Positions 1-4,202 of a DNA stretch of 4,202 nt are shown here, piece after piece. Position 1 is the first letter of the stretch. Every line of letters starts with the position of its first letter. Position numbers and translations under genes: made by a program. Source of the DNA: a virus (Duplodnaviria > Heunggongvirae > Uroviricota > Caudoviricetes); the IMG/VR virus record IMGVR_UViG_2734482572_000006, one strand, 5' to 3'. The notes beneath the pieces were generated by a model. The model saw only the letters and a list, made by a program, of their open reading frames with translations. It was not told the origin of the DNA and did no database searches.

Positions 1-428
1 TACCGGACTCCTCCTGCGATCCCTTCTGATACTGTCATCAGCATTACGTCATCCTCCGTCATGTCCGCCACATCCGGGGAAGCGGGGATAACTTCATTCC
101 CGTCCGGGCCAAAGCGGACACCTCCGGCAAGCCCTGCCGCTTTCTGCATCAGCACATCATCTTCAGGCTCTTCGTCAGCCTCGCGCCGGTTCAGCAGACT
201 GAAATCCAGCGGATGCATCTCCGGATCGCTGAAAAACAGGCTGAGCACGGTGTACGTCAGCCCGGAAAAGTGCATATCCAGCAGAACATCATGAAAATAA
301 TGGGTACTGTAAAAGCGGTGCCAGTCGGCATACTCCGTGGATGACATCCCGGCAAGCATGGCGCGCCAGTCGGGTCGCCCCATCTCACGCGCCAGTTTCA
401 GGGCAAAACTCAGCTCACCGTCGAACAC
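1..428 (-). CDS. T: Tail assembly chaperone T-frame segment, made only as a G-T fusion by -1 frameshift; partial, its last ~7 nt and stop lie left of position 1
   Basis: My own minus-strand translation in the -1 frame relative to G, from the GTG at 428..426, reads VFDGELSFALKLAREMGRPDWRAMLAGMSSTEYADWHRF...MTVSEGIAGGVR with no stop down to position 1. This matches my recollection of lambda gpT. It has no start codon or RBS of its own, as expected for a frameshift-only product. Not in the ORF track because its stop is outside the window. Confidence 0.85.
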   Translation of the reverse strand, partial: MFDGELSFALKLAREMGRPDWRAMLAGMSSTEYADWHRFYSTHYFHDVLLDMHFSGLTYTVLSLFFSDPEMHPLDFSLLNRREADEEPEDDVLMQKAAGLAGGVRFGPDGNEVIPASPDVADMTEDDVMLMTVSEGIAGGVR

Positions 429-933
429 TTTCCCGCAGAAACAGGCTCTGCAGGCCCGGCGTCCTCTGTCTGTTCAGGAGCATCATTCACCACAAACTCA
501 NNNNNNNNNNNNNNNNNNNNNNNNNNNNNNNNNNNNNNNNNNNNNNNNNNNNNNNNNNNNNNNNNNNNNNNNNNNNNNNNNNNNNNNNNNNNNNNNNNNN
601 NNNNNNNNNNNNNNNNNNNNNNNNNNNNNNNNNNNNNNNNNNNNNNNNNNNNNNNNNNNNNNNNNNNNNNNNNNNNNNNNNNNNNNNNNNNNNNNNNNNN
701 NNNNNNNNNNNNNNNNNNNNNNNNNNNNNNNNNNNNNNNNNNNNNNNNNNNNNNNNNNNNNNNNNNNNNNNTCTGATGGCGTCTTCCACAGTAAACTTCC
801 GGTTGCTGTCTGACTCCGCCTGTTCTGCCTGCCGTTTCATCAGGGCGAGATGCTCAATACGCTGCAGGGCTGACAGTTCAGAAAGCGTGACGGTCACACC
901 GTTATGTTCAAATGATTCGGTTTTCAGGAACAT
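410..933 (-). CDS. G: Tail assembly chaperone G, interrupted by N run 501..771; N-terminal part visible at 772..933, C-terminal part at 410..500
   Basis: ATG at 933..931 lies 15 nt after the V stop, preceded by a GGAGAG Shine-Dalgarno-like motif. The N-terminus MFLKTESFEHNGVTVTLSELSALQRIEHLALMKRQAEQAESDSNRKFTVEDAIR matches lambda gpG as I recall it. Below the gap the G frame reads ...EFVVNDAPEQTEDAGPAEPVSAGKCSTVS and stops at TGA 412..410. The track ORF ending SLW* at 487 is a different frame joined through the Ns. Confidence 0.85.
428..434 (-). promoter_or_regulatory. Programmed -1 ribosomal frameshift slippery heptamer G_GGA_AAG (G to G-T fusion)
   Basis: Plus strand 428..434 is ctttccc, so the minus strand reads GGGAAAG, with GGA and AAG as zero-frame codons of G, 6 codons before the G stop. 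The -1 frame is open from here to the window edge and encodes the T sequence. Confidence 0.85.
501..771. other. N run (271 nt), sequence unknown, inside G
   Basis: Literal n characters. Flanking G segments are in different frames relative to each other, and the run is about 100 nt longer than a lambda-length G (140 aa) would need. Confidence 0.9.
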
Positions 934-948
934 CGCTGACTCTCCGGA

Positions 949-1689
949 TTAACTGGCGGTGACGTTGATTTCTGCAACCGCAGCAAACTCACCATTACCA
1001 GATACGACCGGAATGTTGACCTTGCCTGCAGCAACACCTTTCACGGTGATGGTCATACCACTGACCGACACGGTGGCTTTTGTTTTATCCGCAGACACCG
1101 CACGGAAGCTCTTGTCGGTTGCGCCATCCGGCTGGAATGCCACGGTCAGCGTGGTGCTCTGCCCTTTCACTACGGAAGCACTGGCGGGTGTCACCGTCAT
1201 GCCGGTCGTCGCCGTCACCGTGCTGCGATCTTCTGCCATCGACGGACGTCCCACATTGGTGACCTTCACCGTGCGGGTAATCACCTCCTTCGCCGTCACC
1301 GCCTTACCGATACTGCTGACCCAGCCACGGAACACATCGACCGTGCCGTTCGGGAAGCGGATTTTATAGGCACGGGTATCACCTTCATTAAACCACGCCA
1401 GCAGCGCCTGCTGCCCCTGCTCTCCGGGCATCCACGCCAGCGTGAAGCTGGTATCTCCGGCAGATTTCTGCCCCTGCCCGGTCGCAGTCCAGTCTGCATC
1501 TTCATCATCGAGATAGCTGTCGTCATAGGACTCAGCGGTCAGTTCGCCGGGCGTCAGGTCTTTAACTTTTGCCAGACGCGACCAGTCAACGTCTGAAAGC
1601 GGGTTCGCATAAGGGTCACCGCTCCCCTTATAAACCCACAGGGTGGTCCCGGCACCTTTCACCGGCATTGTAGGATTTGGTACAGGCAT
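949..1689 (-). CDS. V: Major tail tube protein V, 246 aa, with C-terminal Ig-like (Big_2-type) domain
   Basis: ATG at 1689..1687 is preceded by GAGGA. The translation [45 protein letters not shown]...[22 protein letters not shown] matches lambda gpV as I recall it. Stop TAA is at 951..949. The track ORF (949..1719) adds 10 upstream codons ([10 protein letters not shown]) that overlap the end of U and lack an RBS. Confidence 0.95.
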
Positions 1690-3472: not shown

Positions 3473-4202
3473 TTACGCCAGTTGAACGGACACGAACTCA
3501 TCAGGATCAGCCAGCAGCATCAGCGGTGCTGACTGAATCATGGTGAACTCACGCGCCGGATCGCCGGTGGTCACCCAGTTTTTCGGGTAACGGGCAGAAG
3601 CGTTAATGCCTTCGCGCTGTGCGTCCGCATCCTGAATGCAGCCATAGGTGCGCAGACCGCGAGCCTGAGTGTTCCCCAGCACCATCGTGTTGTCCGGCAG
3701 GAAGTTCTTTTTGACGCCGTTTTCCACGTACTGTCCGGAATACACGACGATGGCCACATCGCCATACATTCCCTNNNNNNNNNNNNNNNNNNNNNNNNNN
3801 NNNNNNNNNNNNNNNNNNNNNNNNNNNNNNNNNNNNNNNNNNNNNNNNNNNNNNNNNNNNNNNNNNNNNNNNNNNNNNNNNNNNNNNNNNNNNNNNNNNN
3901 NNNNNNNNNNNNNNNNNNNNNNNNNNNNNNNNNNNNNNNNNNNNNNNNNNNNNNNNNNNNNNNNNNNNNNNNNNNNNNNNNNNNNNNNNNNNNNNNNNNN
4001 NGTTGTTCGCCGCACTGCGGCCCATATCCACCTCAACCGGATCGAAGGCTTCACCGGTCATGGTGTATTTGCCCTTGAGCACGGCAGAAACTGCCTGCAT
4101 CTCTTCGACCTGAGCAATGGCCAGCTCTTCGTCACGCATGTTCTGCATGATGATGCGACGGCGGCGGTAAGCCGGGTCCGCCAGATTCTGCGGATCTTCA
4201 TC
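3473..4202 (-). CDS. E: Major capsid protein E (HK97-fold), partial: N-terminal ~100 codons lie right of the window, with an internal N run at 3775..4001
   Basis: My translation of 4202..4002 gives DEDPQNLADPAYRRRRIIMQNMRDEELAIAQVEEMQAVSAVLKGKYTMTGEAFDPVEVDMGRSAANN. Translation of 3772..3476 gives GMYGDVAIVVYSGQYVENGVKKNFLPDNTMVLGNTQARGLRTYGCIQDADAQREGINASARYPKNWVTTGDPAREFTMIQSAPLMLLADPDEFVSVQLA. Both match lambda gpE as I recall it. Stop TAA is at 3475..3473, 41 nt before the FI start. Confidence 0.93.
3775..4001. other. N run (227 nt), sequence unknown, inside E
   Basis: Literal n characters. The E reading frame differs by one position between the two flanks (227 is not a multiple of 3), and a lambda-length E would need about 238 nt. 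Confidence 0.9.

What the first reader, a model, noticed from the sequence alone, without database searches (positions are those of the whole stretch)
410..434. Intact G-T programmed -1 frameshift site (G_GGA_AAG) six codons before the G stop
The minus strand reads ...GCG GGA AAG TGT TCG ACG GTG AGC TGA. The slippery heptamer GGGAAAG sits at plus 428..434, and the -1 frame is open from there through the whole left part of the window, encoding the gpT sequence. In lambda-like phages a minority of ribosomes slip here to make the G-T fusion, and the G to G-T ratio matters for tail assembly. The site is seen directly; the biology is established. I did not see an obvious strong hairpin or pseudoknot immediately downstream.
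Basis: partly seen in the sequence, partly recalled or inferred. Interest (0 to 1): 0.45.

Follow-up and report, generated by a model that had tools for sequence, protein, structure and literature searches.

The report
Lambda G-T tail-chaperone frameshift site
This is the well-known slippery sequence at which a few percent of ribosomes slip back one base at the end of phage lambda's tail-assembly gene G to make the G-T fusion protein; here it sits in a close lambda relative, base-for-base identical to the lambda site, so it is real but ordinary.

Summary
GGGAAAG lies on the minus strand at 434..428 as G_GGA_AAG in the G frame. The G stop TGA is at 412..410, six codons after AAG, and the -1 frame is open for all 144 codons to the window edge. 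That frame is gpT (TIGR01715, 7.9e-55) and the upstream ORF is gpG (TIGR01674, 3.4e-24). The segment is 99.0% identical to lambda 10044-10542, and the heptamer with 16 nt upstream and 64 nt downstream is identical. In 134 related loci the same position always carries an in-frame N_NNA_AAG shift site (GGGAAAG, GGAAAAG, AAAAAAG or GGUAAAG). This is the textbook lambda G/GT programmed -1 frameshift, so it is already known.

Two qualifications. About 57 middle codons of G are hidden by an N-run whose length is not faithful, so G's continuity cannot be verified here. Covariation, synonymous-site and codon-randomisation tests do not separate it from protein conservation, matching Sharma et al. 2014. 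One gap remains unexplained: the bare motif gives 0.28% frameshifting in reporters, while lambda is reported at about 3-4%.

The parts
428..434 (-). Slippery heptamer G_GGA_AAG (0 frame GGA-Gly, AAG-Lys; -1 frame GGG-Gly, AAA-Lys)
   Evidence: Read directly; the only match in the window; identical to lambda 10109-10115. In 134 homologous loci this position is always N_NNA_AAG.
410..412 (-). UGA stop codon of gene G, 6 codons after the AAG codon
   Evidence: The same spacing is seen in most relatives.
413..499 (-). Visible C-terminal 29 codons of G (EFVVNDAPEQTEDAGPAEPVSAGKCSTVS)
   Evidence: corresponds to lambda G codons 112-140.
501..771 (.). N-run hiding the middle of G (lambda codons 55-111); the run length is not faithful (271 nt against 170 nt in lambda)
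772..933 (-). Visible N-terminal 54 codons of G, with ATG at 933-931 and a GGAG Shine-Dalgarno at about 945-942
   Evidence: PF06894 1.6e-23; TIGR01674 3.4e-24; anti-SD duplex -6.6 kcal/mol with 7 nt spacing.
1..434 (-). T reading frame (-1 relative to G): 144 open codons that run off the window. In lambda 2 more codons and the stop follow. Window position 1 is the A of the H start codon.
   Evidence: PF06223 2e-14; TIGR01715 7.9e-55; alignment to lambda.
350..420 (-). Predicted branched RNA structure starting 7 nt 3' of the heptamer: outer stem 420-413 with 357-350, inner hairpin about 394-359. Functional status unproven and probably a by-product of coding.
   Evidence: Sharma et al. 2014 Table S8.
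426..428 (-). GTG that RefSeq lambda annotates as the start of a stand-alone T CDS; very unlikely to be a real initiation site
   Evidence: annotation. Anti-SD duplex is only -4.3 kcal/mol with 1 nt spacing. The codon is GCC in N15-type relatives.

Best explanation
This is the programmed -1 ribosomal frameshift site of the lambda-type tail assembly chaperone genes G and T, in a phage or prophage about 97-99% identical to lambda.

Most ribosomes translating G read ...GCG GGA AAG and terminate at UGA six codons later, giving gpG (140 aa in lambda). A minority slip. With tRNA-Gly on GGA in the P site and the single E. coli tRNA-Lys (anticodon mnm5s2UUU) on AAG in the A site, both tRNAs re-pair one base back on GGG and AAA. 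Translation then continues in the T frame and gives the gpG-T fusion (about 279 aa in lambda). Gly-Lys is encoded in both frames, so the junction reads ...PVSAGK-VFDGELSF....

gpG and the G part of gpGT coat the tape-measure protein gpH, and the T part recruits the major tail protein gpV. The roughly 30:1 G:GT ratio set by the slip frequency is needed for tail assembly.

Shown here: the site, its phase, both reading frames, their family membership, synteny, identity to lambda, and positional conservation across relatives. Inferred from the literature on lambda: that slippage occurs, its frequency, and the protein functions.
For: Heptamer and stop at the stated coordinates and in the right phase.

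The -1 frame is open for at least 144 codons, against a mean of 12 and a maximum of 72 in non-coding -1 frames of neighbouring genes.

The T frame matches PF06223 and TIGR01715 (equivalog, 183.9 bits against a cutoff of 77) and G matches PF06894 and TIGR01674.

The segment is 99.0% identical to lambda 10044-10542, and the heptamer with 16 nt upstream and 64 nt downstream is identical. Gene order V-G-T-H is the same as in lambda.

In 134 related loci, down to 37% T identity, the homologous position is always an in-frame N_NNA_AAG: GGGAAAG in 103, GGAAAAG in 26, GGTAAAG in 3 and AAAAAAG in 2. Apart from the decayed copy L130, there is a 0-frame stop 2-7 codons later and 112-154 open -1 codons. 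The sequence changes but slipperiness and phase are kept.

T-frame residues K2, E7, L8, F10, L14, A15, R16 and E17 are invariant although they lie upstream of any in-frame ATG.

The annotated GTG has no usable Shine-Dalgarno and is not a start codon in N15-type relatives.

Literature: lambda G/GT frameshifting, the 30:1 ratio and the protein roles (Atkins 2016, PMC5009743); the 0 frame is kept about 96% of the time and the shift depends on tRNA-Lys thiolation (Maynard 2012, PMC3296357); G_GGA_AAG is among the most shift-prone heptamers in E. coli (Sharma 2014, PMC4066793), and its gpG cluster is marked [true]. Phage 434 and LLS records annotate the joined G-T CDS.
Against: Nothing in the window contradicts it. 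The limits are these. The middle of G is masked by an N-run of unfaithful length, so an intact G ORF upstream of the site is assumed from relatives, not seen. The T stop lies 7 nt beyond the window. No expression data exist for this particular sequence. The bare motif gives only 0.277% in a stimulator-free reporter, so the heptamer alone may not account for lambda's reported 3-4%.
Confidence: 0.93

Rival explanations
1. The same frameshift site, but not stimulator-free. The branched RNA structure predicted from 7 nt downstream of the heptamer (window 420-350) acts as a moderate 3' stimulator that raises slippage from the bare-motif level to lambda's 3-4%, much as the IS911 three-way junction does (that junction is known to me from memory, not checked here).
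For: The structure starts at an ideal 7-nt spacer and is stable: -40.6 kcal/mol, z = -2.4 against dinucleotide shuffles, within the most stable 2% of 306 98-nt mRNA-sense windows here.

The same architecture is predicted independently in 10 relatives at 72-99% identity, and RNAalifold recovers it for the 38 lambda/N15-type sequences (-23 to -27 kcal/mol).

One pair covaries, col 16-84: A-U in 19 sequences, G-C in 18, with one G-U intermediate. The 3' member is a synonymous site.

Most lineages fold better than synonymous-codon-randomised versions (z -1 to -3).

In reporters GGGAAAG gives 0.277% alone, 3.80% with the IS911 stimulators and 43% with the IS3 pseudoknot. Lambda is reported at about 3-4%, which is about 13 times the bare value.
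Against: [quoted passage not shown]

Sharma et al. found a hairpin in only 51% of the gpG cluster, with ddG per nt of 0.020 +/- 0.095, below their 0.09 threshold, and no reduced synonymous variability.

My own tests agree. 85.6% of cells pair against 83.0% in column-preserving shuffles, so nearly all pairing reflects conservation. Pair 19-81 is broken in 16 of 43 sequences. Synonymous codon identity is 0.59 over the structure against 0.52 in the rest of T. L122, L133 and L135 keep the shift site but show no excess stability. RNAalifold on the whole family finds no consensus (-2.5 kcal/mol).

The stems encode the highly conserved peptide LAREMGRPDWRAMLAG, which by itself explains the conservation.
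Confidence: 0.15
2. T is translated on its own from the GTG at 428-426 (as the stand-alone T CDS in RefSeq lambda implies) or from an internal ATG, and the heptamer is incidental.
For: RefSeq NC_001416 annotates T as a separate CDS from that GTG. Several records start T at internal ATGs.
Against: The GTG has a weak anti-SD duplex (-4.3 kcal/mol) with 1 nt spacing, against -6.6 to -10.7 with 3-8 nt spacing for most neighbouring genes. The codon is GCC in N15-type relatives. Conserved T-frame residues lie upstream of all in-frame ATGs. The TIGR01715 match begins at T-frame residue 7. Slippery heptamers are conserved in phase in 134 of 134 loci. The literature shows that gpGT is the product.
Confidence: 0.02
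3. The -1 shift arises during transcription (RNA polymerase slippage on the G3A3 run), or from ribosome collision with a ribosome paused at the G UGA, and not from simple tandem tRNA slippage.
For: A UGA stop lies just downstream. Smith et al. 2019 showed that UGA-stalled ribosomes stimulate -1 shifting of trailing ribosomes on this very heptad.
Against: Collision stimulation peaks at an A-site-to-A-site spacing of 8-10 codons, and the 5-codon spacer served as their low baseline. Here the spacing is 6 codons, and in relatives 6, 2 or 1. Homopolymer runs of 3 nt are far shorter than those known to support transcriptional slippage (established knowledge, not tested here). Frameshift frequency responds to tRNA-Lys modification, which points to the ribosome.
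Confidence: 0.03
4. The site is a relic: the copy in this window belongs to a defective prophage in which G, or other tail genes, are broken within the masked stretches.
For: About 57 codons of G are hidden, and the N-run lengths, taken at face value, would break G, E and the FII/Z junction. Decayed copies exist, for example Shigella L130.
Against: All visible parts are 97-99% identical to lambda with no indels (gap opens = 0 in four blocks), and all visible ORFs are intact. All three N-runs deviate from lambda by amounts that are not multiples of 3, which fits arbitrary mask lengths better than three independent disruptions.
Confidence: 0.05

Closest known systems
Bacteriophage lambda G/G-T programmed -1 frameshift (Levin, Hendrix & Casjens 1993; Xu, Hendrix & Duda 2004, 2013, 2014, cited through the reviews read)
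   Same: Identical heptamer, phase, distance to the UGA stop and flanking 16 + 64 nt. Same gene order V-G-T-H. 99.0% nucleotide identity over the T region.
   Different: Five substitutions in 499 nt, none near the site. They change G N116D and T D72E relative to lambda. The window as a whole is closer to phage 434 and 2G7b (98.4%) than to lambda (97.4%). The middle of G is not visible.
N15 gene 14/15, phi80-like (mEp213, LLS) and Stx-phage G/T frameshift sites
   Same: Homologous G and T proteins, the same position of the shift site relative to the G stop, and the same A_AAG A-site tetramer.
   Different: The heptamers differ (G_GAA_AAG and A_AAA_AAG against G_GGA_AAG) and T is shorter (115-119 codons against 146).
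IS911 / IS3 / dnaX -1 frameshift signals of E. coli
   Same: The same class of V_VVA_AAG heptamer, decoded by the single E. coli tRNA-Lys. A branched structure is predicted at a comparable spacer of 6-7 nt.
   Different: Those signals have experimentally proven stimulators: an upstream SD and/or a hairpin, three-way junction or pseudoknot with stability above the local average. Here there is no SD within 6-17 nt upstream (upstream sequence; 'N' in Sharma Table S4), and the predicted structure is not distinguishable from coding conservation.

Membership tests
Lambda-type tail assembly chaperone G/GT -1 PRF | Two overlapping ORFs located between the major tail protein gene and the tape-measure gene | tested here: met
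   V (949-1689), G (933-410), T (434-off window), and the H start at position 1, all on the minus strand and collinear with lambda.
Lambda-type tail assembly chaperone G/GT -1 PRF | [quoted passage not shown] | tested here: met
   G_GGA_AAG at 434-428, with the stop 6 codons after AAG.
Lambda-type tail assembly chaperone G/GT -1 PRF | A long downstream ORF in the -1 frame, open from the heptamer, with no credible initiation site of its own | tested here: met
   At least 144 open codons. GTG at 428 has a -4.3 kcal/mol anti-SD duplex with 1 nt spacing. Conserved residues lie upstream of the first ATG.
Lambda-type tail assembly chaperone G/GT -1 PRF | The upstream product belongs to the gpG family | tested here: met
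   PF06894 1.6e-23 and TIGR01674 85.3 bits (cutoff 74.45) on the visible 54 N-terminal residues.
Lambda-type tail assembly chaperone G/GT -1 PRF | The -1 frame product belongs to the gpT family | tested here: met
   PF06223 2e-14 and TIGR01715 183.9 bits (cutoff 77.35).
Lambda-type tail assembly chaperone G/GT -1 PRF | The shift site is conserved in position and phase among homologues even though its sequence changes | tested here: met
   134 of 134 loci carry N_NNA_AAG in phase, in four heptamer variants.
Lambda-type tail assembly chaperone G/GT -1 PRF | An uninterrupted G ORF leading into the site | tested here: inconclusive
   Positions 501-771 are N, and the run length (271) differs from lambda's 170 nt and is not interpretable.
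Lambda-type tail assembly chaperone G/GT -1 PRF | A G-T fusion protein is actually produced at a few percent of G | not testable with these tools
   Known for lambda from the literature. No expression data exist for this sequence.
Stimulated bacterial -1 PRF signals (dnaX / IS911 / IS3 type) | SD-like element 6-17 nt upstream of the heptamer | tested here: not met
   The 30 nt upstream (GGACGCCGGGCCTGCAGAGCCTGTTTCTGC) contain no GGAG, GAGG or AGGA. The nearest GAGG is 28 nt upstream. Sharma Table S4 gives 'N' for the gpG cluster.
Stimulated bacterial -1 PRF signals (dnaX / IS911 / IS3 type) | A 3' structure 4-10 nt downstream that is conserved and more stable than the local background | tested here: inconclusive
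   A structure is present at a 7-nt spacer. However, covariation is minimal, synonymous constraint is weak, it is absent in divergent members, and there is no family-wide consensus. Published ddG is 0.020 +/- 0.095, below the threshold.
Collision-stimulated -1 frameshifting (Smith et al. 2019) | Slippery heptad 8-10 codons (A site to A site) upstream of a slow stop codon | tested here: not met
   The AAG-to-UGA spacing is 6 codons. The optimum is 8-10 codons.

The most novel reading that the evidence does not exclude
Lambda's G-T frameshift is not stimulator-free. The clade-conserved branched RNA structure beginning 7 nt after the heptamer (window 420-350) supplies the roughly 13-fold boost that separates the bare G_GGA_AAG reporter value (0.277%) from lambda's reported 3-4% in vivo. 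It would then be part of how the G:GT ratio is set. It has been overlooked because it is built from codons of a highly conserved peptide, which masks covariation and synonymous-site signals.
Probability: 0.15. Interest if true: 0.4.

Novelty: already known. Interest (0 to 1): 0.1.

Why it matters
The G:GT ratio fixed by this site is required for correct assembly of the lambda tail around its tape measure, and the site is the founding example of a recoding signal conserved across most long-tailed phages. Recognising it matters for annotation. Many database records, including RefSeq lambda, still list T as a separate gene or start it at an internal ATG. It adds no new biology. The only open thread is quantitative: why lambda shifts about 13 times more often than the bare heptamer does in reporters.

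Tried and rejected
- Rfam scan of 1-499 at a permissive E-value gave only a sub-threshold snoRNA hit (14.9 bits against a gathering score of 38, E = 0.26). This is chance.
- My first Pfam call was in the wrong frame and was repeated correctly.
- The primary papers could not be retrieved: Levin 1993, Xu 2004 and Xu 2013. What Levin et al. found in deletion analyses of downstream sequence therefore rests on the Atkins 2016 summary only.
- The viral-contig scan returned only lambda-identical copies among its best 80, so it added almost no diversity. The useful diversity came from genome contigs and the phage collection.
- The lambda MFE structure imposed on 43 sequences looked supported by the slid-partner control (85.6% paired against 26-42%). 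That control is biased because the structure was derived from one of the sequences. The column-shuffle control (83.0%) shows that the pairing is almost all conservation.
- A collision-with-stop mechanism was considered and rejected on spacing.
- An upstream SD stimulator was considered and rejected by reading the sequence.
- Pseudoknot prediction, protein structure prediction and the large protein searches were not run. The first has no tool here, and the others were unnecessary given equivalog-level family matches and 99% identity to lambda.

Full report
**1. What is in the sequence**

The minus strand of the window reads ...GCG GGA AAG TGT TCG ACG GTG AGC TGA. GGGAAAG occupies 434..428 and the TGA occupies 412..410, so the coordinates given in the finding are exact. 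The 0 frame translates to ...EDAGPAEPVSAGKCSTVS*. Reading from the first G of the heptamer, the -1 frame gives 144 sense codons (GKVFDGELSFALKLAREMGRPDWRAMLAG...) and reaches window position 1 without a stop.

The heptamer occurs once in the window, which by itself is not remarkable: 0.53 matches are expected, and 81 of 200 shuffles contain at least one. What cannot be chance is the combination of four things:
- the X_XXY_YYZ phase in the upstream ORF;
- the stop six codons after AAG;
- a -1 frame open for at least 144 codons, whereas stop-free -1 runs inside neighbouring lambda genes average 12 codons and never exceed 72;
- the homology described below.

**2. What it is**

The -1 frame matches Pfam Phage_tail_T (2e-14) and the NCBIfam equivalog TIGR01715 phage_lam_T (7.9e-55, 183.9 bits against a cutoff of 77). 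The ORF that starts at 933 matches Pfam Phage_TAC_2 (1.6e-23) and the equivalog TIGR01674 phage_lambda_G.

Positions 1-499 are 99.0% identical to lambda 10044-10542 and 99.2% identical to phage 434. In the alignment, the heptamer with 16 nt upstream and 64 nt downstream is identical in the window, lambda, HK630 and 434.

The whole window is collinear with lambda 6417-10542 on the minus strand, running E'-FI-FII-Z-U-V-G-T with the first base of H at position 1. It aligns in four ungapped blocks of 97.0-99.0% identity. Its closest relatives overall are phage 434 and 2G7b at 98.4%. The source is therefore a lambda-like phage or prophage, not lambda itself.

**3. A caveat on 'intact'**

The window has three N-runs: 501-771, 2551-2814 and 3775-4001. 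They are 271, 264 and 227 nt long but replace 170, 275 and 241 nt of lambda. None of the differences is a multiple of three, and all fall in essential genes, so the run lengths are evidently arbitrary. As a result, lambda G codons 55-111 are invisible here, and continuity of the G frame into the shift site cannot be demonstrated from this window. The recoding site itself is intact.

**4. Comparative evidence**

I collected diverged relatives from the phage collection and prophage homologues from bacterial genomes, down to 37% T-protein identity. In all 134 loci the position homologous to the lambda heptamer carries an in-frame N_NNA_AAG: GGGAAAG in 103, GGAAAAG in 26, GGTAAAG in 3 and AAAAAAG in 2. 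Apart from one decayed Shigella copy, each locus has a G-length ORF upstream of at least 128 codons, a 0-frame stop 2-7 codons downstream and 112-154 open -1 codons. So the sequence of the heptamer drifts while its slipperiness, phase and position are retained, which is the signature of a selected recoding site.

T-frame residues K2, E7, L8, F10, L14, A15, R16 and E17 are invariant although they precede any in-frame ATG. The GTG that RefSeq lambda uses as the 'T start' has a weak anti-Shine-Dalgarno duplex (-4.3 kcal/mol) with 1-nt spacing, and it is GCC in the N15-type relatives. Independent initiation of T is therefore not credible.

**5. Mechanism**

From the literature read here, lambda makes gpG and gpGT at about 30:1. 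The G parts bind the tape-measure protein gpH, and the T domain recruits the major tail protein gpV. Neither protein is found in virions, and the ratio is crucial (Atkins et al. 2016, PMC5009743).

The 0 frame is kept about 96% of the time. Both AAG and AAA are read by the single tRNA-Lys (mnm5s2UUU), and hypomodification of that tRNA raises frameshifting and lowers phage yield (Maynard et al. 2012, PMC3296357). G_GGA_AAG is among the three most shift-prone heptamers in E. coli (Sharma et al. 2014, PMC4066793).

The site and its flanks are identical to lambda's, so the same mechanism is inferred for this window with high confidence. Because Gly-Lys is encoded in both frames, the junction peptide is ...PVSAGK-VFDGELSF....

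**6. The downstream-structure question**

[quoted passage not shown] Locally that is right: the first 50 nt fold weakly (-7.3 kcal/mol, z = +2.0). With 98 nt, however, a branched structure is predicted that starts 7 nt after the heptamer (-40.6 kcal/mol, z = -2.4). It has an outer stem CGGUGAGC/GCUUGCCG and an inner hairpin built on UGGCGCG/CGCGCCA. A similar architecture is predicted independently in ten relatives (z -1.9 to -4.2), and the segment is in the most stable 2% of 98-nt mRNA-sense windows here. I tested it in five ways.

- **Pair counts.** On 43 non-redundant sequences, 85.6% of cells pair, against 83.0% when the 3' letters are shuffled within columns. Almost all pairing therefore reflects conservation. 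Only one pair shows substantial covariation (A-U in 19, G-C in 18), and another is broken in 16 of 43 sequences.
- **Synonymous sites.** Codon identity among diverged pairs is 0.59 over the structure, against 0.52 in the rest of T.
- **Codon randomisation.** Against synonymous-codon-randomised versions, z is -1 to -3 in most lambda/N15-type lineages but positive in L122, L133 and L135, which still keep the shift site.
- **RNAalifold.** It finds no family-wide consensus (-2.5 kcal/mol). It does recover the architecture once the five most divergent sequences are removed (-23 to -27 kcal/mol).
- **Prior published analysis.** Sharma et al. had already screened this gene cluster (G_GGA_AAG_4, gpG, '[true]'). 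They found no upstream SD, a 54-nt hairpin with a 7-nt spacer in 51% of members, ddG of 0.020 +/- 0.095 kcal/mol/nt (below their 0.09 threshold, so likely fortuitous) and no reduced synonymous variability.

My results agree with theirs. The structure is plausible and clade-conserved, but it cannot be distinguished from a by-product of the conserved peptide LAREMGRPDWRAMLAG.

**7. An unexplained number**

In Sharma's reporters GGGAAAG gives 0.277% without stimulators, 3.80% with the IS911 stimulators and 43% with the IS3 pseudoknot. Lambda's reported 3-4% is about 13 times the bare value. Context effects, reporter differences or a real but undetected stimulator could account for this. I rate the stimulator reading at about 0.15.

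A collision mechanism with a ribosome paused on the G UGA is unlikely. That effect peaks at an A-site spacing of 8-10 codons, and the spacing here is 6. No SD-like element lies 6-17 nt upstream.

**8. Verdict**

This is the canonical, experimentally characterised lambda G-T -1 frameshift site in a near-lambda genome, so it is already known and of low interest. Rfam has no family for it. I could not retrieve the primary papers by Levin 1993 and Xu 2004/2013, so statements about them rest on the reviews.

Noticed in passing
window 501-771, 2551-2814, 3775-4001: Three N-runs of 271, 264 and 227 nt replace 170, 275 and 241 nt of lambda. None preserves length or reading frame, so ORFs listed through them (for example the 148-aa 'ORF' at 487-933) are artefacts, and the middle of G, the FII/Z junction and part of E cannot be assessed.
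   Followed up: yes
L092-L106, L117, L125, L132 (genome-contig hits); H19: Lambda sequence at 99-100% identity appears in assemblies of unrelated organisms (Neobacillus, Oceanobacillus, Kitasatospora, Chromatium, Shewanella, Enterococcus, Pseudoxanthomonas, Psychrobacter and others), mostly on contigs whose titles state about 0.7-2.7x coverage. It also appears in a record named 'Campylobacter phage CJLB-4'. This looks like laboratory lambda DNA contamination or mislabelling.
   Followed up: no
L001 672-1106 (lambda T), L005 583-972, L006 549-857, L009 584-856: Database annotation of T is inconsistent. RefSeq lambda starts a stand-alone T CDS at the GTG inside the heptamer region. PhiR12_4, VT1-Sakai and mEp213 start T at internal ATGs. 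Of the ten records I inspected, only phage 434 (OL657226) and LLS annotate a joined G-T CDS.
   Followed up: partly
L133, L134, L136 position 701-707 (Pantoea and an Enterobacterales MAG prophage): The homologous shift site is G_GUA_AAG, whose P-site codon cannot re-pair canonically in the -1 frame (GUA to GGU). These may rely on A-site A_AAG slippage alone, or shift less efficiently.
   Followed up: no
L130 701-760 (Shigella flexneri chromosome): This copy has an intact GGGAAAG but an indel about 17 nt downstream, and both frames are broken. It is a decayed prophage copy.
   Followed up: no
window ~1385-1502, minus strand, inside gene V: The most stable 98-nt mRNA-sense fold in the window (-45.6 kcal/mol, GC 0.68) lies in the V coding region, and it is more stable than the segment after the frameshift site. 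I did not examine it further.
   Followed up: no
literature: PMC3296357 section 9 against its Table 1: Maynard et al. 2012 print the lambda slippery sequence as GGGTTTG (codons GGT-TTG) in the text, but as GGGAAAG in Table 1. The table is correct for the mRNA.
   Followed up: yes
window 428-434 against literature values: Bare GGGAAAG gives 0.277% -1 frameshifting in a stimulator-free E. coli reporter (Sharma 2014 supplement), but lambda G-T is cited at about 3-4%. I found no explanation for this ~13-fold gap in the papers I could read.
   Followed up: partly
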